Assembly: GCA_965217115.1 (NCBI GenBank) | Contig: OZ244239.1 | Span: 1,856,001-1,920,000, forward strand | Length of the DNA stretch: 64,000 bases | Reading direction: 5' to 3' | DNA from: Bdellovibrionales bacterium | GTDB lineage: Bacteria; Bdellovibrionota; Bdellovibrionia; Bdellovibrionales; CAYMLA01 | Shown: in pieces, positions 21,001 to 42,000 of the stretch | Position numbering within the stretch: position 1 is the stretch's first letter | Layout of the letters: each line of letters opens with the position of its first letter | Program-made: the position numbers

Positions 21001-24000
21001 TTCTAAAGAAATTTTTCATTCGACTTTGTAGCTCTATCATTTGACCCTCACGAACAGAGTCAGACAAATTACAAAAAAGACTTTGAAAGCTTTCTCTTGT
21101 TCCTAAAATGTATTCATCAACAAAGCTTGTGAGTCCATAAAGCTCCATTAGGTGATTTTGCATAGGAGTCGCGGTTAAAAGTAATTTTTTAAATGGCTGA
21201 AGAGTGTCTTTGATACGTTTAGCACGCTTTGCTTCCTTTTTTCCTTTTTTCCATACATTTCTCAATTTATGAGCTTCATCTATAACAATTAAATCCCATG
21301 CTTCCTTTTTAATAATTTCATGATAGCTATCTACAGAATGTTCATTTGTAATAATTATTTTTTCTTCTCTATTTAGTGGGGTTTCTTTTTCTGGATTATT
21401 TATTTTCTTAAAATCTTGCCCTGCCATGATTTCACTGTCTAAAAAGAAGAGATTTGATAATTCATCTTTCCATTGATGGCGAAGTGACTTAGGAGCGATG
21501 ATTAAAAATGATCTCTTCCCCTCAGCCCATAGCTGTGAAAGAACAAGACCTGCCTCAATTGTTTTTCCAAGGCCAACTTCGTCAGCTAAAATACATCCTT
21601 TACTCAAAGGGTTCTTCAAAGCAAATATTGCTGCATTTATTTGATGAGGATTTAGGTCAATACAGGCATCAAACATTGCCTGAGAAAGACGATTAACTGA
21701 ATCTCCAGCTTGAAGCAGTGATAATTCATGTGCGAATAATTTAGCGTGGTAGTTAGTGTTCAACCTTTACTACCTCGCTCATCGAACTTTCTCCCCTTAA
21801 TTAATTAAATAAAACTTATGCGAATATTCAAACACTGATTGTCTTTTTTGACAAACTATTGCTAAGATAAAAAAATCATTCTCTTGACTAGACGAATTTT
21901 TTAGTGCCAAGACATAAGTTCCCCTCAGATTGCAAGTAACTGAAGTCTTGGCTGCAAAATTTTTGGTATTGGATGTCTTACTCCGAGGCTTGAGTGAGGT
22001 CTAGCGGTGTTATAGTGAACTCCTCAACGTTCAATTAATTTTGTTATCTGAGCGTCTGTGCTTTGGTGTTTCTCTCTCTAAGAAAAAACCTGTTAAGACC
22101 AAAAAATCAAAAAAAACCAAAGAAAAACATAGAGGATTTGGGGTGGGGTTATTTTTTGGTGAGGTGGTGGGTGAGGGCTTTTCGGTTGATGCGCCAGTTG
22201 TGGCGGGGGTCTAGGGGGAGGTGGGGGAGTTCTTGTATTTGTAGGTTGGGGAGGTTGAAGGGGAGGTTGTTGGGGTTGAGATTGAGATTGAGATTTTTGG
22301 AGTTGGGGGAATTGGTAGAGGGGTTTTCGATGGTGAGGAGGGGGGTGTTTGTTTGGGGGTGCATGATGAGGGCGACGCGGGTGGGGGGGGATTGGTTTTC
22401 GACTTGGTGTTCAAAGGGGAAGGTTGGGTGGAGGGTGCCGTCGATGTTGATTTGATCTTTGATTCTGCCGACGAGCCAGAGGCGGTCTCTTTGGTCAAAG
22501 AAACCTAAGTCGCCTGTGCGATGCCAGGTTTTGCCTTGGAGATCTTTGGGTTTGGTCTGTCGTGTGGCTTCTGGGTTGGCGATGTAATTTTTTATGACGT
22601 GGGGGCCGCTTAAGAGAATCTCTCCCGTCTGTCCCTGGGGGAGGGGGGTTTCTAGTAATTTGTCTTCGGGGGAGAATAGTTTTATTTTAATTCCCTCAAT
22701 GGGTTTTCCGACGAGGTATCCATGGTCTTTTTCTCCAAGAAATTCTTTTATATTTATTCCCGATATGGGTTCGGCCTCTGTTGAGCCGTAGACAATGTAG
22801 TTTTCTGATTGTTGAAATAGATTTTGAATCCTACAGGCTAACCACTGGGGGACGGCTGCTCCACCAGTGACTGAGCTTTGGAAACTTTTCGGAATACAAT
22901 CAGGAGTGATCTGATTGTTAGTGAGATTATTAAAAACAGCAGGGGAGGCTGACATGCGTGTGACTTGCCAACGGTTGAGCTGTTGAACAAGTTTTTGCGG
23001 ACAGGCCTGGGAGGGATAACGCAAATCCATATCGGGGAGAACCGTGGTGATTCCCCAATTGAGATTCATAAGGACGACGAGGGGAAAACCACAGAGGTCC
23101 ACTTCACTGTCATTTTTAGGCCAGCTTCTATGACTGAAAAATCTTTGGTGGGCAATGATCTGATGTTGCCGATCGGCTCCCTTGGGACGACCTGTTGTGC
23201 CTGTTGTGAAGGAGATAAGGGAGGTGTCCCCAGGGGAGATCGAAACCGTGGGTCTCAATAGATCGGCGGTCTCTCTGTCATTGGAGTTATGAATTAAATC
23301 CTGCCAATTTTTTAGAAACAACCCACTGCCGTCGGTGGAGAAAAGTTTTTTATTCCACAGGGCGGGGAGGTAGAAACGATGGCGCAATAATGTCTCTGTG
23401 CTGATAAGCGCCTTTGCTTTTGATAACCTGATGGAGTGTATTAATTGGGTTGGGGAGAGGGTGGTATCGATGAACACGGGAACAATCCCATTGGAAAAGA
23501 GAGCTGCTAAAAAAGCGTAGAAACTCACCGAGACAGGCATAATGACAAGAAAACGATCCCCGGGCTGCAAGTGGTGGTGATCCAACCCCCGACGGAAACC
23601 CTGGACAAGGCTCGCAAACTCGCCATAGGTCCAGACACGCTCTTCTCCCCCTGTCTTTGGTTCGATAAGAGCGACTTTATCGGGGTGTGCCTTTGCATTT
23701 GCAAAAAAATCATCGGCGAGGTTTAGGGGGATTGAAAATTCATGGGACATGTTTTCATCCTACGAAAGGCAGTCATTTTTTGCTAGAAAATAAGCGGTTT
23801 TTGATAGATTATGAGTGATTTAAGATGAAGTCCTCGCCGGACTTATGAACTCCTTGGGAATTCATAGCAGATTGAACGGAAAATAAAAAAGGATGTTTTA
23901 ATGGGATCTATGATGGGTGGTTTTTTAGAGTGGTTTAAAGAACGTTTTCCACTGGCAGCTGTGTTCTCTGCTTTTCTGATTTACACATTGGTGGCCTCGC

Positions 24001-39000: not shown

Positions 39001-42000
39001 AAGCGTTCTTTTATAGATTATGATTTAGATTCTGTTGATGTTGTGGGCTTGAATGCTCGTTTAAAGGAGACTATTGTGAATATTCCTCTAGCGAGTTTCA
39101 TCCAATTTCAATCAGCAGAGGAGTTAATTAAATACCTGCTGAAGGAGTATAAAGATGAAGTTAGATGTTGGTATCAACGGAGAGCGTAAGAGAAAAGTTT
39201 TTTCTTTTTCATTAGAAGAACTGAATTATCGATCTGAGCATGAGTCCTTCGATTTAAAGAATATACAGTTTCAAGGAAGACCATCTCCTGATATTCCATG
39301 GATGCCTAATGATATGTTGCCAGTGTCGTATTTACCGGCTTTCAAGTTGTTGTCTGCTGAATTGAAAATGGTGTTTAATCAGGCTTATGCCCAAGCCATT
39401 TGTGAACAGTTTATATGGTTTGAGCAAGTTCTATTATGTAGCATTTTGAAAAAAACTCTTGATAAAAAACAATTACCTGCTGACTTAAGAACGTGTTTAC
39501 AGCATTTTTTTGACGAAGAGGATAAACATTCAGAACTTTTTTGGCGTGTATTAGAGTATTCTAATCCTGAGAGATATTTTGAGAGAAAGTTTTTTTATTA
39601 TCAGGCTAATATTGTGCAGACGAGCTTTATTAAGATGATAGCTAGCTATCCAGATAACTTTTTAGTTTGGATATGGTTGGCTATTTTCTTTGAAGAGAGA
39701 ACCATTGAGTTCAGTCGTAAGTATAAAGCTGTTGAAAAAACATTGGAACCCGTGTTTTCTCGGGCTCATTATTTACATCTCTTGGATGAATCTCGTCATG
39801 TCCAAATTGATCAGTACCTATTGGAGCAATTTTATAACAAAGCCTCTAAAAACAAACGTCGAGTCGCTTCTTGGATGTTAGAGTCAGTTTTAAAAGCCTA
39901 TATTTCTCCCCGGCGGGTGGCTTGCAATATTGTGAAGCACCTATCAACTAGATTTCCTGGGGAAAAGAAGGGGCTTGATAGGCTGGCATTGGAGCTGCCT
40001 CTCTTGCGCACCCATAGGGAATTTCAGTCAGCGACTTTTGGGCCAAGAGCTCTGCCGAGAACACACACTCTTTTGCGTAATTATGAAGAGATGTCTGATG
40101 TTCTTCATCTGCTGACCTGATGTGCCGTTTTTTTTCTAGAGTCTCTCCCAAAAGAATCTAGCCCTTTTCTTGCTCAAACATCCGTTTGTCACCTTCCATT
40201 GCAGAGAAATGCAATGGAAGTCGCCAAGCCAAACTCGCCGAAAAGAACTGGATTCTTTTGGGAGAGACTCTAGAAAAAAAGGACGTATTCAATCAATTGA
40301 GTCAATGGATCTATCTCTATGACTGACCTCCATGTATAACAACGCTGTTATCCATGGATCGTTTTAGAAAGAGAGCCCTCAAGATGAGTCTCTTGGGAAC
40401 AGTTCCACTATTTATCACAAAGAACCATACTTTAAGCCAGAAAGTAACCAGCTATTTGAAAGGGTAACCCTCAATATGAGGCAATTCGGCGTCATTATAG
40501 TTTCACGGTGAAAGAATATATTTTTAAAGGAATGCCCCCCATATTCCGATGAGTCATAGAGCCTTTAAGGGGGGTATTTTAATATGGTTTTACAGGGAAA
40601 TTTACAGAATATGTTTGATGCTCTCTATCTCTTAGGAGCTATAGACCCCGTGTTGCAAATGGATTGGATGGAGGCTCTTGATGAGCTTGAGGAACAGTAT
40701 GAGCAACAGGCCCATGTGGAGGAAGTTATTACGGTGGTTTCCGATCACAATGGAGATGTCAATGAGTTGGCAGAGTCTTTGAAAAAATTTGACGACAGAA
40801 CTCTGGCTTATCTAGCGATGGAAGTCGCCAGGGAGTTTGCTAATTTCCATACGCGTGAGTATGTGCATTAAAAGAGAGGATGGCAGCAGGATTTTTTTTT
40901 AATATTAACCAACACCCCATTAAAACTGTGTGAACTATGTCTAAAGATCAATTAGGAATTTACAGAGAAGCCATTAAAAGTTTTCTAGCTCCCGTTTGGG
41001 GTTTCATGGAAGACGATAATGTCTCAGAGATTTTAATCAACGGACCTGGCGAGGTCTTTATTGAGATGAATGGCAAATTGAAGAAAGCGGAGGTTTGTTT
41101 TGAGAGTGAAGATGCTTTACGTGCGGCAGTGAACAATATTGCCCAAAGTGTGAATCGTCGTATAGATGATGACAACCCTCGTCTAGACGCAAGATTGCCC
41201 GATGGGTCAAGAATTTCTGTGGTGATACCTCCCTGTTCTTTACAGGGAACAGTCGTGAGTATTCGTAAATTCACACAGACTGATATTTCTTTCCGCGATT
41301 ATATTAAATCTGGTTCGATCACTCAGGAAGGAGCCCAGTTTTTAGATGTGAGTATGTTTTTGGGAAAAAATATCTTAGTCAGCGGTGGTACGGGGTCAGG
41401 AAAGACAACTTTGTTAAGTCTTTTATGCAACCGTATTCCTAAGGGGCAAAGACTCATTGTGATTGAAGATTCGGCTGAGTTGCAGATCAATTATGAGCAT
41501 GTTTTAAAATTTGAAACGCGCATGGCTGATGAGCTGGGCAAGGGCGCGGTGACGATTCGTGATTTGGTAAAGAGCAGTTTGCGTTTGCGACCAGATCGTA
41601 TCATCGTGGGTGAGGTTCGTAGTGCTGAGGCCTTGGATCTTTTGAATGCGATGAACACGGGTCACAAGGGTTGCATGGGAACAGTTCATGCCAATTCTCC
41701 AGAGGATGCGATTGTGAGGTTGGAGGCTCTGGCTCAGGGCGGAGACTCTCAGATCAGTGAGAAAGCTCTGCGTTATCAGGTGGCAGCAGGAATTGAATTA
41801 ATCGTGCAGGTCTCAAGATATTCAGATGGCTCCCGTCGTATTGCTGCGATATCAGAAGTGTTGGGGTTTAACGATGATGGAAATTACCATGTAGAGCCTA
41901 TTTTTATGATGTCTCATTTGGTGCGCGGGACTGATGGAAAGTTGCAAGGACAATTGGAACCCGTGGGAAGATTGCCTTCGTATATGGATGAAATCGAGGA

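What a model noticed while it worked through the whole genome (the two positions that open the first line are those of the whole stretch)
22149..40120. Uncharacterised lipid-type gene cassette around an HMG-CoA-reductase/kinase fusion protein
Besides its housekeeping HMG-CoA reductase the genome has a second one, g01770 (804 aa), in which a class-I HMGR domain with all catalytic motifs is fused to an APH/EcKL-type small-molecule kinase. It sits with a rifampicin-phosphotransferase-like swivel enzyme (g01771), a UbiA-family transferase (g01764), a tandem-GNAT acyltransferase of no Pfam family (g01765), an ANL adenylating ligase (g01763) and an MMPL-like exporter (g01766); here a FAAL-ACP (g01772), an AurF-like di-iron oxygenase (g01773), a BtaA-like DUF3419 protein (g01768) and a START-like protein (g01769) are added. 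The same core (UbiA, HMGR-kinase, Rph-like, tandem GNAT, ANL ligase, often MMPL and a CDP-alcohol phosphatidyltran [...]
Evidence so far: Domains: pfam.tsv and Swiss-Prot rows; lenient hmmscan gives APH (E 1e-4) and EcKL for residues 417-804 of g01770, MMPL for g01766, Polyketide_cyc2 for g01769. 1310 homologues at E<=1e-20; of the 120 listed nearly all carry PF00368 with PF01636 and are named only 'phosphotransferase' or HMGR. Alignment of 23: invariant E70, D197-A-x-G-Q-N-M, S237-x-D-K-K241, G347..GGG352, H404-E405, i.e. the HMGR catalytic Glu/Asp/Lys/His and NADPH loop as I recall them. Of 80 loci fetched with the alignment 37 hold the fusion: Rph-like gene within 10 kb in 20 of 37, ANL ligase 9, UbiA 9, g01765-like 7, DUF3419 5; of 43 loci with plain HMGR: Rph-like 0, UbiA 0. 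In Oleispira locus L053 the genes are contiguou [...]
(Added by a program. Inside this text positions count along the whole contig: contig position 1,856,001 is position 1 of the stretch shown here. "Call 12" and the like, gene names such as g00115 and contig names such as C1 are that model's own, and its searches are not shown. The text may have been shortened before it was handed on; [...] marks where a part breaks off. The agent that wrote the report below was given it as the finding of a first reader that could run no searches.)

Follow-up and report, generated by a model that had tools for sequence, protein, structure and literature searches.

The report
Fatty-alcohol-phosphate lipid gene cluster
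Eleven neighbouring genes in a Bdellovibrio-like bacterium most likely turn fatty acids into phosphorylated fatty alcohols and build from them an undescribed, amino-acid-headed envelope lipid; the same core genes recur in many bacterial phyla, yet I found no paper that describes the pathway.

Summary
In detail: all eleven ORFs and their domains lie at 22149-40120. The label "second HMG-CoA reductase" does not. The reductase domain keeps the catalytic Glu/Lys/Asp/His but carries the pocket changes of FcrA, the HMGR-derived fatty acyl-CoA reductase (PMC11948995). The genome's true HMGR is class II and lies 1.5 Mb away.

In 27 UbiA-anchored metagenome loci of at least 15 kb, the neighbours were FcrA 27, fused kinase 25, Rph-like dikinase 27, tandem GNAT 24 and ligase 25. 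Each locus also held either a CarS-like/CDP-alcohol-transferase pair (19) or a BtaA-like DUF3419 gene (7), never both. This window has the BtaA-like version.

The UbiA profile is closest to archaeal DGGGP synthase. The 353-aa protein folds as a tandem GNAT (pLDDT 92.9, Z 19.5).

Best reading: fatty acid, then alcohol, then alkyl phosphate and diphosphate, then O-alkylation, then a homoserine head group, then N-acylation, then export. Only the gene content and families are shown; every chemical step is inferred.

This scan has met the same cluster at least seven times on other genomes. None of my five searches aimed at the cluster found it in print.

The parts
22149..23750 (-). ANL adenylating ligase (533 aa), probably a fatty acid-CoA ligase that feeds the reductase
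   Evidence: PF00501 at E 1.7e-47. Best NCBIfam match is the 'fatty acid CoA ligase family' NF006754, 371 bits, below the 478 cut-off. A ligase is present in 25 of 27 long UbiA-anchored loci.
23901..24800 (+). UbiA-superfamily membrane transferase (299 aa), DGGGP-synthase-like
   Evidence: PF01040 at 44.8 bits, above the 34.2 cut-off. The family profile's best solved relative is DGGGP synthase 6m31 (E 2.6e-13), then chlorophyll synthase (E 1e-7). No other UbiA-superfamily chain was among the 13 listed at E<=10. The first Asp motif D64-E65-x-x-D68-x-x-x-D72..P77-x-R79..G84 is kept. The second Asp motif is replaced by E188-x-x-R191-K192.
24801..25862 (+). Tandem-GNAT acyltransferase (353 aa, no Pfam hit itself); its start abuts the UbiA stop codon
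   Evidence: AlphaFold2 on 126 sequences gave pLDDT 92.9 and pTM 0.89. VIA-align: Z 19.5 to the tandem GNAT MAB_4324 (7q3a), 18.5 to glucosamine N-acetyltransferase, 16.5 to MshD; FemX, MprF and NMT score about 11. 29 of 126 family members hit PF00583. The family has 5377 representatives at E<=1e-3. An R298-x-x-G-x-A motif sits in the C-terminal half.
25911..28148 (-). RND-superfamily (HAE3/MMPL/HpnN-like) transporter (745 aa), the likely lipid exporter
   Evidence: MMPL E 0.0021, HAE3 TIGR00921 E 3e-9, HpnN E 1.8e-4, all below their cut-offs. The L098 counterpart scores HAE3 126.6 bits and MMPL 105.8 bits. An RND gene lies in 14 of 27 long loci. In 8 loci it follows a LolA-like gene and a 426-aa partner.
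28233..29834 (+). Exported protein of unknown function (533 aa; N-terminal signal-like segment, hydrophobic C-terminus), divergent from the RND gene
Evidence: No Pfam, NCBIfam or PDB-linked family. Its only locus homologue is in the Bdellovibrionales locus L009, again beside the RND gene. The Atlas gives only hypothetical-protein clusters, mostly Bdellovibrionota.
29838..30950 (-). DUF3419 / BtaA-like SAM-dependent 3-amino-3-carboxypropyl transferase (370 aa): the head-group module of this variant
   Evidence: PF11899 at E 8.2e-49. DUF3419 is the annotation carried by a putative algal betaine-lipid synthase found by homology to BTA1 (PMC10685587, passage). It never co-occurs with the CarS-like/CDP-alcohol-transferase pair: 0 of 39 fusion loci and 0 of 80 UbiA-anchored loci hold both.
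30996..31724 (-). 242-aa protein, possibly an SRPBCC/START-like lipid-binding protein (weak)
   Evidence: Polyketide_cyc2 at E 0.0038, below its cut-off. Atlas feature score 0.91 to PF10604 clusters, a lead only. No PDB sequence match. No homologue in 160 fetched loci. The single-sequence fold failed at pLDDT 35.
32032..34446 (+). FcrA-type acyl-CoA reductase (about residues 30-411) fused to an APH/EcKL-type kinase (about residues 417-804)
   Evidence: PF00368 at E 1e-95; APH at E 4e-4. Catalytic E70, K240, D314 and H404 are kept, with FcrA-type pocket residues E233, Q283 and F400. Kinase residues K488, K490, H677-x-D679-x-x-x-x-N684 and D700 are invariant in 28 fusions. The nearest solved kinase is the ACAD11 N-terminal domain, E 1e-4.
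34443..37064 (+). Rph/PEP-synthase-like swivel-His phosphotransferase (873 aa); its start overlaps the fusion gene's stop by 4 nt
   Evidence: PPDK_N at E 3.6e-55 and PEP-utilizers at E 1.3e-23. The best PDB match is 5fbs/5hv1, deposited as 'phosphoenolpyruvate synthase', at E 1e-66. The motif SLSHSAIVARE holds the swivel His. It scores below the Rph equivalog cut-off (298 of 999 bits). An Rph-like gene is present in 27 of 27 long UbiA-anchored loci.
37009..39189 (+). Fatty acyl-AMP ligase fused to an acyl carrier domain (726 aa); an accessory of this genome's version
   Evidence: AMP-binding at E 1.6e-52 and PP-binding at E 1.2e-7. NF006624 FAAL scores 349 bits, below the 600 cut-off. The ACP tail has no homologue in the 160 loci.
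39155..40120 (+). AurF-like di-iron oxygenase (321 aa); an accessory of the Bdellovibrionales/BtaA-type version
   Evidence: PF11583 at 59.5 bits, above the 29.6 cut-off. Two E-x-x-H motifs are visible (EEDKH, DESRH). Homologues lie in L003, L009 and L106, in each case inside the cluster.

Best explanation
The cassette is this genome's copy of a widespread, uncharacterised bacterial lipid pathway that uses phosphorylated fatty alcohols as building blocks. All steps below are inferred from enzyme families and gene linkage.

1. The ANL ligase makes a fatty acyl-CoA.
2. The FcrA-type domain reduces it with NADPH to the fatty alcohol.
3. The fused APH-type kinase phosphorylates the alcohol to an alkyl phosphate.
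4. The translationally coupled Rph-like dikinase adds a second phosphate, giving an alkyl diphosphate.
5. The DGGGP-synthase-like UbiA enzyme uses that diphosphate to O-alkylate an acceptor. I favour a glycerol or glycerol-phosphate backbone, by a small margin.
6. A head-group module adds an alpha-amino acid. Here the BtaA-like DUF3419 enzyme transfers the homoserine moiety of SAM. In most other genomes a CarS-like cytidylyltransferase plus a serine-type CDP-alcohol transferase does the equivalent job.
7. The tandem GNAT N-acylates the free amine with a second fatty acyl group. In this genome that chain is perhaps loaded by the FAAL-ACP and modified by the AurF-like oxygenase.
8. The RND transporter, possibly with the exported 533-aa protein, moves the lipid to the envelope.

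The gene content, domain families, conserved residues, fold and co-occurrence are shown. Substrates, order of steps, acceptor and product are inferred.
For: FcrA type, not HMGR:
- The catalytic tetrad is kept, but the positions where archaeal and plant HMGR show Ser, Lys and Leu hold E233, Q283 and F400.
- All 38 fusions whose reductase domain was aligned show E-[E/D]-K-x-D-F-H at the seven positions.
- The FcrA paper reports exactly these three positions as changed, and shows reduction of acyl-CoA of C14 or longer but not of HMG-CoA (PMC11948995: abstract, passages and section 20).
- The HMGR equivalog cut-off is missed, 262 of 441.8 bits.
- MVD was found above its cut-off in only 1 of 5 cluster-bearing genomes.

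Kinase: the catalytic residues are invariant. The fusion implies consecutive steps.

Rph and UbiA are linked:
- The genes overlap or abut.
- Rph lies beside the cluster-type UbiA in 27 of 27 long loci and in 16 of 17 UbiA-bearing fusion loci.
- Both are missing from two Kordia genomes that keep FcrA-kinase, CarS-like and the CDP-alcohol transferase. Both lie adjacent to each other in two other genomes.

UbiA: the profile is nearest to DGGGP synthase and then chlorophyll synthase, both O-alkylating enzymes.

Head-group modules are interchangeable:
- 19 CarS/CDP-transferase loci and 7 DUF3419 loci among 27 long loci; 0 with both, 1 with neither.
- There are 9 CDP-transferase+CarS fusions.
- The CDP-transferase is nearest to archaetidylserine synthase and PssA in 3 of 3 tested proteins of the main operon type; the one Kordia-type protein tested is nearest PgsA.
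- Both modules would therefore supply an alpha-amino acid.

GNAT: the tandem-GNAT fold is closest to CoA-dependent N-acetyltransferases, and the gene is present with either module, in 24 of 27 long loci.

Export genes recur: RND, a LolA-like protein, a barrel-like partner, or an ABC system.
Against: - No step has biochemical support, and no product is known.
- Characterised UbiA enzymes ionise allylic or anomeric diphosphates (recalled). A saturated alkyl diphosphate would be a poor substrate.
- This UbiA clade has lost the second Asp-rich motif, so its donor may differ.
- I know of no Rph/PEP-synthase-family enzyme that turns a monoester phosphate into a diphosphate (recalled). Rph and PigC act on hydroxyl or carbonyl oxygens.
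- The BtaA-like step needs a free hydroxyl, yet no phosphatase is conserved in the BtaA-type loci.
- The Kordia minimal set suggests that alkyl phosphate goes straight to the CarS-like enzyme without any glycerol.
- Q283 is not a small residue, and F400 is Phe rather than the Trp of the characterised FcrA clade, so chain length is open.
- The kinase domain of this very protein is below Pfam's cut-off, 20.6 of 23.2 bits.
- The exclusivity statistic ignores relatedness among loci.
- In this genome the genes lie in at least three divergent units, not one operon.
Confidence: 0.45

Rival explanations
1. Glycerol-free amino-acid lipid. The alkyl phosphate (or, here, the free alcohol) is joined directly to the amino acid. 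In the CarS type this runs CDP-alkanol plus serine to alkyl-phosphoserine. In this window the BtaA-like enzyme would make O-alkyl-homoserine. The GNAT then N-acylates it. The Rph/UbiA pair adds a further alkyl group from alkyl diphosphate, for example as an ester on the carboxylate, as chlorophyll synthase does.
For: - Two Kordia genomes keep FcrA-kinase, CarS-like and the CDP-alcohol transferase but show no cluster-type UbiA or Rph.
- No phosphatase and no glycerol-phosphate enzyme is conserved in the cluster.
- Chlorophyll synthase is the second-best solved relative of the UbiA profile.
- Every needed substrate is a common metabolite.
Against: - DGGGP synthase, CarS, archaetidylserine synthase/PssA and BtaA all act on radyl-glycerol lipids in their characterised forms (BtaA recalled).
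- A PlsC-type acyltransferase sits in one variant, L039.
- A GDPD gene lies beside three BtaA-type loci.
- The reductase-kinase fusion argues against release of free alcohol to the BtaA-like enzyme.
Confidence: 0.25
2. Reversed polarity at the UbiA step. The alkyl phosphate is the acceptor, as decaprenyl phosphate is for the mycobacterial phosphoribosyltransferase UbiA, and a diphosphate-activated polar donor is transferred onto it. The Rph-like enzyme would phosphorylate or activate some other hydroxyl.
For: - This avoids the chemically awkward saturated alkyl diphosphate.
- The second Asp motif is lost and replaced by E-x-x-R-K.
- Rph and PigC relatives activate oxygen atoms of hydrophobic substrates (family names; mechanism recalled).
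Against: - The decaprenyl-phosphate phosphoribosyltransferase family was not among the 13 chains listed at E<=10 in the PDB profile search; the hits were DGGGP synthase and chlorophyll synthase.
- No sugar-phosphate or PRPP-forming gene is conserved in the cluster. A TrpD-like gene was seen in L098 only.
- It leaves the strict Rph-UbiA pairing unexplained.
Confidence: 0.12
3. A specialised or secreted metabolite (signal, surfactant, antibiotic-like lipid) and not a structural envelope lipid. The chemistry would be as in the best explanation, but the role differs.
For: - Distribution is patchy. The kinase domain was found in 9 of 301 genomes of the phylum (6 of 169 genera) and in none of the other sampled genomes of the same order.
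- Accessory tailoring genes typical of natural-product clusters appear: FAAL-ACP, AurF-like, P450, B12-radical SAM, thioesterase, condensation-like.
- Dedicated exporters are present.
Against: - The core is very uniform across distant phyla.
- It uses membrane-lipid enzyme families.
- LolA-like and barrel-like partners point to the outer membrane as destination.
Confidence: 0.2
4. A dedicated mevalonate branch. The fusion would make phosphomevalonate from HMG-CoA and so supply isoprenoid units to the UbiA prenyltransferase.
For: PF00368 at E 1e-95 with all four catalytic residues. UbiA enzymes normally use prenyl diphosphates. This genome has mevalonate-pathway genes.
Against: - The HMG-binding Ser, Lys and Leu are replaced by E233, Q283 and F400.
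- The characterised FcrA does not reduce HMG-CoA.
- The score is below the HMGR equivalog cut-off.
- The kinase is APH-type and not a GHMP kinase.
- 4 of 5 cluster-bearing genomes show no MVD above its cut-off.
- The genome's own pathway uses a class II HMGR next to an MVD-like gene 1.5 Mb away.
Confidence: 0.03

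Closest known systems
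FcrA, the class-I-HMGR-derived fatty acyl-CoA reductase (Pb-FcrA of Ca. Promineifilum breve; Natronomonas pharaonis FcrA; Grossi et al. 2025, PMC11948995)
   Same: The HMGR fold, the conserved catalytic Glu/Lys/Asp/His, and replacement of the three HMG-pocket residues: Glu for Ser684, a non-Lys residue, and a bulky aromatic for Leu862.
   Different: - Here the enzyme is fused at its C-terminus to an APH-type kinase. The words kinase, phosphotransferase and APH occur 0 times in the paper's main text; its figures and supplements were not seen.
- It has Phe where the unfused clade has Trp.
- It has no N-terminal Lad domain.
- It is linked to UbiA, Rph and GNAT genes, not to a wax synthase.
Archaeal ether-phospholipid pathway: DGGGP synthase (6m31), CDP-archaeol synthase CarS, archaetidylserine synthase
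   Same: The cluster family's UbiA, CarS-like and CDP-alcohol transferase components have these three as their nearest characterised relatives. The implied logic is the same: diphosphate-activated chain, ether formation, CDP activation, serine head group.
   Different: - The chains would derive from fatty acids, not isoprenoids.
- There is no GGGP-synthase-type enzyme.
- All scores are far below the equivalog cut-offs.
- The UbiA lacks the second Asp motif.
- This window lacks the CarS-like and CDP-transferase genes altogether.
Plant phytol salvage: VTE5 phytol kinase, VTE6 phytyl-phosphate kinase, then UbiA-type chlorophyll synthase or homogentisate phytyltransferase (recalled, not checked in a paper here)
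   Same: The same logic: alcohol, then monophosphate, then diphosphate, then transfer by a UbiA-family enzyme. Chlorophyll synthase is the second-best solved relative of this UbiA profile.
   Different: The kinases are unrelated in fold (APH-type and PEP-synthase-type here). The alcohol would be made de novo by a reductase and would be non-allylic.
BtaA/BtaB betaine-lipid (DGTS) synthesis
   Same: The DUF3419 domain at E 8e-49, which would transfer the 3-amino-3-carboxypropyl group of SAM to a lipid hydroxyl.
   Different: No BtaB-type N-methyltransferase is in the cluster. A GNAT is present instead, so the amine would be acylated and not methylated. The acceptor is probably not diacylglycerol.
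Rifampicin phosphotransferase RPH and the prodigiosin ligases PigC/RedH
   Same: The three-part architecture: an ATP-grasp PPDK_N domain, a central domain, and a swivel His domain carrying the catalytic His.
   Different: It is below the curated cut-offs of both families (298 of 999 bits; 293 of 1300 bits). It is strictly paired with a UbiA gene, and its substrate is unknown.
Known bacterial ether-lipid routes: ElbD/AGPS of myxobacteria, and the Ger and PlsA/PlsR ester-to-ether reductases (titles and abstracts seen in the listing)
   Same: They would yield non-isoprenoid alkyl ether lipids from fatty acids. ElbD also contains a fatty acyl reductase.
   Different: None of them uses alkyl phosphates, a UbiA transferase, CarS-like activation or a BtaA-like head group.

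Membership tests
Class I HMG-CoA reductase (EC 1.1.1.34) | HMG-CoA_red fold with catalytic Glu, Lys, Asp and His | tested here: met
   PF00368 at E 1e-95. E70, K240, D314 and H404 are invariant in 28 fusions.
Class I HMG-CoA reductase (EC 1.1.1.34) | HMG-binding pocket residues (human Ser684, the Lys of the N-x-x-K-N segment, Leu862) | tested here: not met
   E233, Q283 and F400 stand where the archaeal (6hr7) and plant (8ecg) enzymes show S, K and L. The human residue numbers are from the paper and my recollection.
Class I HMG-CoA reductase (EC 1.1.1.34) | Score above the curated equivalog cut-off | tested here: not met
   TIGR00533 scores 262 bits against a cut-off of 441.8.
FcrA fatty acyl-CoA reductase | Catalytic tetrad kept while the three HMG-pocket residues are replaced (acidic for Ser684, non-Lys, bulky for Leu862) | tested here: met
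   The bulky residue is Phe (Trp in 38 of the 41 unfused loci), and Q283 is not small.
FcrA fatty acyl-CoA reductase | Membership of the monophyletic FcrA clade together with the characterised Pb-FcrA and Np-FcrA | tested here: inconclusive
   No tree with the characterised sequences could be built because they could not be fetched. An HMM built from 79 locus proteins scores the fusion at 539 bits and the genome's class II HMGR at 52 bits. All 80 loci retrieved share the FcrA-type residues.
FcrA fatty acyl-CoA reductase | NADPH-dependent reduction of long-chain acyl-CoA to alcohol, with no activity on HMG-CoA | not testable with these tools
   Requires an enzyme assay.
APH/EcKL small-molecule kinase | Pfam match above the cut-off | tested here: inconclusive
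   The window protein scores 20.6 bits on APH against a 23.2 cut-off. Relatives pass: L022 scores EcKL 47.9 and APH 37.3, and 112 of 120 listed homologues carry PF01636 or PF02958.
APH/EcKL small-molecule kinase | Catalytic loop H-x-D-x-x-x-x-N, the metal-binding Asp and the ATP-binding Lys | tested here: met
   H677, D679, N684, D700, K488 and K490 are invariant in 28 fusions. The assignment of these motifs is recalled.
Rifampicin phosphotransferase (RPH) | PPDK_N ATP-grasp domain plus a swivel PEP-utilizers domain with the catalytic His | tested here: met
Rifampicin phosphotransferase (RPH) | Equivalog-level similarity | tested here: not met
   NF041857 scores 297.9 bits against a cut-off of 999; NF000283 scores 205.9 against 1700.
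UbiA superfamily / DGGGP synthase | First Asp-rich motif N-D-x-x-D-x-x-x-D followed by P-x-R-P-L-x-x-G | tested here: met
   D64-E65-x-x-D68-x-x-x-D72..P77-x-R79..G84 aligns to the 6m31 motif.
UbiA superfamily / DGGGP synthase | Second Asp-rich motif | tested here: not met
   The 6m31 segment E-x-x-K-D-x-x-D-x-x-G-D aligns to E188-x-x-R-K with no Asp. Only E188, R191 and K192 are invariant in the closer subset.
BtaA (SAM:diacylglycerol 3-amino-3-carboxypropyl transferase) | DUF3419 domain | tested here: met
   PF11899 at 167 bits, above the 28.2 cut-off. Activity and acceptor were not tested.
Tandem GNAT N-acyltransferases (MshD, Eis, MAB_4324 type) | Two GNAT folds in one chain, with a CoA-binding R/Q-x-x-G-x-G/A motif in one of them | tested here: met
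   Model pLDDT 92.9. Z 19.5 over 284 residues to 7q3a and Z 16.5 to MshD. R298-H-M-G-A-T is present, and R298 is nearly invariant.
AurF-like di-iron oxygenase | PF11583 match and two E-x-x-H iron-binding motifs | tested here: met
   59.5 bits against a cut-off of 29.6. EEDKH and DESRH are in the sequence. The assignment of these motifs is recalled.
SRPBCC/START-like lipid-binding protein (242-aa ORF) | Family match or fold | tested here: inconclusive
   Pfam 18 bits against a cut-off of 27.4. Atlas score 0.91 with 159 shared features. No PDB sequence match. The model's pLDDT is 35.

The most novel reading that the evidence does not exclude
Bacteria of many phyla make non-isoprenoid ether lipids by an archaeal-style route that nobody has described. 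Fatty alcohols from FcrA are activated as alkyl phosphate and alkyl diphosphate. A DGGGP-synthase-like UbiA enzyme ether-links them. The lipid is then finished either by a CarS-like/archaetidylserine-synthase-like pair or by a BtaA-like homoserine transferase, followed by N-acylation. This would be a fourth, mechanistically new way to make ether lipids. It would also show that the 'archaeal' head-group and ether machinery has long worked on fatty-acid-derived chains, which blurs the lipid divide.
Probability: 0.3. Interest if true: 0.85.

Novelty: new variant of a known kind. Interest (0 to 1): 0.72.

Why it matters
Each enzyme family here is known, but the combination is not. A reductase-kinase fusion that would make alkyl phosphates is strictly paired with a dikinase and a DGGGP-synthase-like transferase, and the set carries swappable head-group modules.

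If the reading holds, it defines a new class of bacterial envelope lipid and a new route to ether bonds. That route would use activated alkyl (di)phosphates, not ester reduction and not the AGPS reaction.

It would also assign functions to several large unnamed families. The tandem-GNAT family alone has 5377 representative sequences, and at least 1299 reductase-kinase fusions were found.

It would explain part of the FcrA genes that do not co-occur with wax synthases, a gap the FcrA paper itself notes. It bears on the sources of alkyl ether lipids in the environment and on the lipid-divide debate.

The pathway is directly testable in cultured carriers named in the record titles, such as Kordia jejudonensis, Zooshikella sp., Streptomyces hesseae and Paenibacillus oenotherae.

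Tried and rejected
- **Housekeeping HMGR as an internal control.** It aligned badly for the pocket residues because it is class II. The class-I control therefore comes from the PDB alignments.
- **UbiA single-sequence PDB search.** No hit at E<=10. The profile search worked.
- **Word-index homologue searches.** They found only 9 relatives of the 353-aa protein and 11 of the UbiA, the query included in each count. The exhaustive profile search was needed.
- **N-terminal extensions in locus L016.** The roughly 500-aa extensions of the DUF3419 and reductase-kinase proteins are not related to the tandem GNAT. I therefore did not reproduce the BtaA-like-GNAT fusion noted by an earlier finding.
- **533-aa exported protein.** It has no similarity to the 434-aa partner of the RND gene in L098, and the Atlas gave only hypothetical clusters.
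- **242-aa protein.** No PDB sequence match, no homologue in 160 loci, and the single-sequence fold failed at pLDDT 35. No fold search was made with it.
- **Promoter scan of the cluster.** 35 sites against 33 expected, so uninformative. The terminator-like sites (31 against 17.6 expected) were not analysed.
- **Rfam on the window.** 0 matches.
- **Literature.** Five searches looked for the cluster or an equivalent pathway and found no description. The sponge-symbiont ether-lipid preprint holds none of the six terms tested: FcrA, UbiA, HMG, DGGGP, CDP-archaeol, fatty acyl-CoA reductase. The Lipocone paper mentions HMGR and UbiA only in other contexts. Subscription journals are not covered.
- **Not run.** No complex prediction was run because I claim no binding. 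No sequencing-run search was made.

Full report
**What is there.**
Between 22149 and 40120 the window holds eleven ORFs. In order they are:
- an ANL ligase (-)
- a UbiA-family protein and a 353-aa protein whose start abuts the UbiA stop (+)
- an RND/MMPL-like transporter (-)
- a DUF3419 protein and a 242-aa protein (-)
- an 804-aa HMGR-fold/kinase fusion, an Rph-like swivel phosphotransferase that overlaps the fusion's stop by 4 nt, a FAAL-ACP fusion and an AurF-like protein (+)

Pfam and NCBIfam confirm each domain. MMPL on the transporter and Polyketide_cyc2 on the 242-aa protein are below their cut-offs.

G+C of the cassette (0.39-0.47) matches the rest of the window. The 12-22 kb stretch upstream is AT-rich at 0.33-0.35. 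Earlier notes of this scan place the genome among Bdellovibrio-like bacteria. The closest named homologues and loci are Bdellovibrionales.

**The reductase is FcrA-type, not a second HMG-CoA reductase.**
The genome has two PF00368 matches. The distant one is a class II HMGR: TIGR00532 scores 331 bits against a 259.95 cut-off. It sits next to a diphosphomevalonate-decarboxylase-like gene.

The cluster protein keeps the catalytic Glu, Lys, Asp and His: E70, K240, D314 and H404, invariant in 28 fusions. In HMMER alignments, solved archaeal and plant class-I HMGRs show Ser, Lys and Leu at three pocket positions. The cluster protein has E233, Q283 and F400 there.

Grossi et al. 2025 (PMC11948995; I read the abstract, passages and section 20) describe FcrA. 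[quoted passage not shown] They name exactly these three positions as the ones that differ: Glu for Ser684, a non-Lys residue (the paper prints "Lys795"), and a bulky residue for Leu862.

Across the 80 loci I fetched, the 38 kinase-fused proteins whose reductase domain was aligned read E-[E/D]-K-x-D-F-H at the seven positions. Of the 41 unfused proteins, 38 read E-[E/S/A]-K-[V/I/L/Y]-D-W-H. None shows the HMGR pattern.

The protein also misses the HMGR equivalog cut-off, 262 of 441.8 bits. Of five cluster-bearing genomes searched, only one has an MVD gene above its cut-off.

I could not place the protein in a tree with the characterised FcrA sequences, so clade membership is inferred from residues and HMM scores only.

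**The kinase and the Rph-like enzyme.**
The C-terminal half is below Pfam's APH cut-off in this protein. Its relatives pass: 112 of the 120 listed carry PF01636 or PF02958. The kinase catalytic residues are invariant. The nearest solved kinase is the N-terminal domain of ACAD11, E 1e-4.

The Rph-like protein has the ATP-grasp domain and the swivel domain with its His. Its best solved relatives are the chains 5fbs and 5hv1. It is far below the Rph and PigC equivalog cut-offs.

**How conserved the neighbourhood is.**
The first sample used an alignment of 28 fusions to fetch 80 named genome loci. I scanned them with iterated HMMs built from the window's proteins.
- 39 loci hold the fusion. Their record titles name Bdellovibrionales, several gammaproteobacterial genera, Bacteroidota, Desulfobacterales, Desulfomonilia, Myxococcaceae, Planctomycetota, Spirochaetes, Rickettsiales, Streptomyces, Paenibacillus, Ca. 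Entotheonella and others.
- Among these 39: Rph-like 22, UbiA 17, CarS-like 16, CDP-alcohol transferase 13, RND 11, AMP ligase 10, 353-aa family 8, DUF3419 5, AurF-like 2.
- Among the 41 unfused loci: Rph-like 1, AMP ligase 5, all the others 0.
- Eleven fusion loci show no partner. Six of them are on loci under 15 kb.

The second, independent sample was anchored on the UbiA protein and gave 80 metagenome loci.
- In the 27 loci of at least 15 kb: FcrA 27, kinase 25, Rph-like 27, tandem GNAT 24, ligase 25, RND 14, CarS-like 19, CDP-alcohol transferase 18, DUF3419 7.
- The usual order is [LolA-like, 426-aa partner, RND] UbiA, FcrA-kinase, Rph, GNAT, ligase, CDP-transferase, CarS.
- The second type reads FcrA-kinase, UbiA, Rph, BtaA-like, RND, GNAT, with ligase and AurF-like added in L106.

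**Two interchangeable head-group modules.**
The recurrent unlabelled neighbour is a CDP-alcohol phosphatidyltransferase plus a CarS-like (PF01864, CDP-archaeol synthase) cytidylyltransferase. The two are fused in 9 metagenome loci and once each to the ligase.

No locus has both this pair and DUF3419:
- 17 against 5 among the 39 fusion loci
- 24 against 14 among the 80 UbiA-anchored loci
- 19 against 7, with 1 locus having neither, among the 27 long loci (Fisher p 9e-6)

The loci are related to each other, so that p-value overstates the case.

This genome has no CarS-like homologue of the cluster type and carries DUF3419 instead. The CDP-alcohol transferase of the main type is nearest to archaetidylserine synthase and PssA in 3 of 3 proteins tested, all below cut-off. 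DUF3419 is the annotation carried by a putative algal betaine-lipid synthase found by homology to BTA1 (passage in PMC10685587). Both modules would therefore install an alpha-amino acid, serine phosphate or homoserine.

**The UbiA and the tandem GNAT.**
A profile of 24 cluster UbiA proteins finds DGGGP synthase (6m31, E 2.6e-13) and then chlorophyll synthase (E 1e-7). No other UbiA-superfamily chain was among the 13 listed at E<=10. Both of these enzymes alkylate an oxygen. The first Asp-rich motif and the P-x-R-P-L-x-x-G segment are kept. The second Asp-rich motif is replaced by E-x-x-R-K.

The 353-aa protein belongs to a large family with no Pfam model of its own: 5377 representatives at E<=1e-3. 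With 126 sequences AlphaFold2 gives pLDDT 92.9. The fold is a tandem GNAT closest to CoA-dependent N-acetyltransferases: Z 19.5 to MAB_4324, 18.5 to a glucosamine N-acetyltransferase and 16.5 to MshD. The aminoacyl-tRNA-dependent FemX and MprF, and NMT, score about 11. Its presence with either head-group module fits N-acylation of the amino-acid amine.

**Sub-modules.**
Two Kordia genomes keep FcrA-kinase, the CarS-like gene and a PgsA-like CDP-alcohol transferase. With my queries they show neither the cluster UbiA nor an Rph-like gene. Two other genomes have Rph and UbiA adjacent to each other on another contig.

So Rph and UbiA travel as a pair, and the reductase-kinase/CarS set can stand alone. 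The pairing is my main reason to think the Rph-like enzyme makes the UbiA enzyme's donor. The free-standing set is also the main support for the glycerol-free rival.

**Export and accessories.**
The RND gene is often preceded by a LolA-like gene (PF17131) and a 426-aa protein with a faint outer-membrane-barrel match. In other loci an HlyD/ABC system takes that place.

In this window the RND gene faces a 533-aa exported protein. That protein recurs only in the Bdellovibrionales locus L009, again beside the RND gene.

AurF-like genes occur inside the cluster in L003, L009 and L106. The FAAL-ACP tail and the 242-aa protein were found only here.

Within the phylum the kinase domain was found in 9 of 301 sampled genomes (6 of 169 genera). 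It was found in no other sampled genome of the same order. The cluster is therefore accessory and patchy.

**Mechanism and its weak points.**
I commit to this chain: fatty acid, acyl-CoA, alcohol, alkyl phosphate, alkyl diphosphate, O-alkylation by the UbiA enzyme (glycerol-type acceptor favoured), homoserine head group from SAM, N-acylation, export. None of it is shown biochemically. The weakest links are:
- the reactivity of a saturated alkyl diphosphate in a UbiA active site that has lost one Asp motif
- the lack of precedent for a PEP-synthase-type enzyme making an alkyl diphosphate
- the missing phosphatase in BtaA-type loci
- the unknown acceptor

**Prior knowledge.**
None of my five searches aimed at the cluster found a paper describing it. 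The FcrA paper's main text never mentions a kinase or UbiA; its figures and supplements were not seen.

This scan has reported the same cluster on other genomes at least seven times. Those notes gave me the FcrA lead, which I then checked myself. A word search of the earlier findings returned none that names both FcrA and a CDP-archaeol synthase.

Noticed in passing
window 12366-21763: An AT-rich (G+C 0.33-0.35) defence island lies directly upstream of the cluster. It holds a retron-type reverse transcriptase (PADLOC RT_VI, 239 bits), a Type III restriction enzyme (572 bits) and methyltransferase (524 bits), and a DrmD-like SNF2 helicase (535 bits).
   Followed up: partly
genome C1:330137-333378 (locus L002): The genome's real mevalonate genes lie here: a class II HMGR (TIGR00532, 331 bits) next to a diphosphomevalonate-decarboxylase-like gene that is just under its cut-off (156 of 171 bits).
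   Followed up: partly
loci L024, L025, L041, L064: A Bacteroidota/Bacteroidales variant pairs the reductase-kinase fusion and the Rph-like gene with no cluster-type UbiA found in these loci. It has instead a DUF454 protein, two P-loop (thymidylate/deoxynucleoside-kinase-like) proteins, an NTP_transf_5 nucleotidyltransferase and an epimerase. The alkyl phosphate may be joined to a nucleotide there.
   Followed up: no
locus L039 (Pseudobdellovibrio MAG), 2644-11413: In this variant the FcrA-kinase, CarS-like and Rph genes are followed by a methyltransferase, a PlsC-type acyltransferase and a fatty acid desaturase, with no tandem GNAT.
   Followed up: no
loci L004, L006, L030, L098 and other 910-940-aa fusions: Most gammaproteobacterial fusions carry about 110 extra N-terminal residues that the 804-aa window protein lacks. 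An earlier finding calls this a PilZ-type domain. A truncated GGDEF ORF lies just downstream of the operon in 6 loci.
   Followed up: no
loci L010 and L016: In a Planctomycetota locus and a Rickettsiales locus the reductase-kinase proteins are about 1310 aa long, with an unassigned N-terminal region of about 500 aa. L016 also has an 857-aa DUF3419 protein with an unassigned N-terminal half. Neither L016 extension resembles the tandem GNAT.
   Followed up: partly
window 1-64000: GC skew is strongly positive (0.15-0.33) over most of the window whatever the gene strand. It turns negative only in the 12-22 kb defence island and at 46-50 kb.
   Followed up: no
window 37009-37064 and 39155-39189: The longest ORFs of FAAL-ACP and AurF-like overlap the preceding genes by 56 and 35 nt. 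The AMP-binding match starts only at residue 63 of the FAAL ORF, so its true start may lie further downstream.
   Followed up: no
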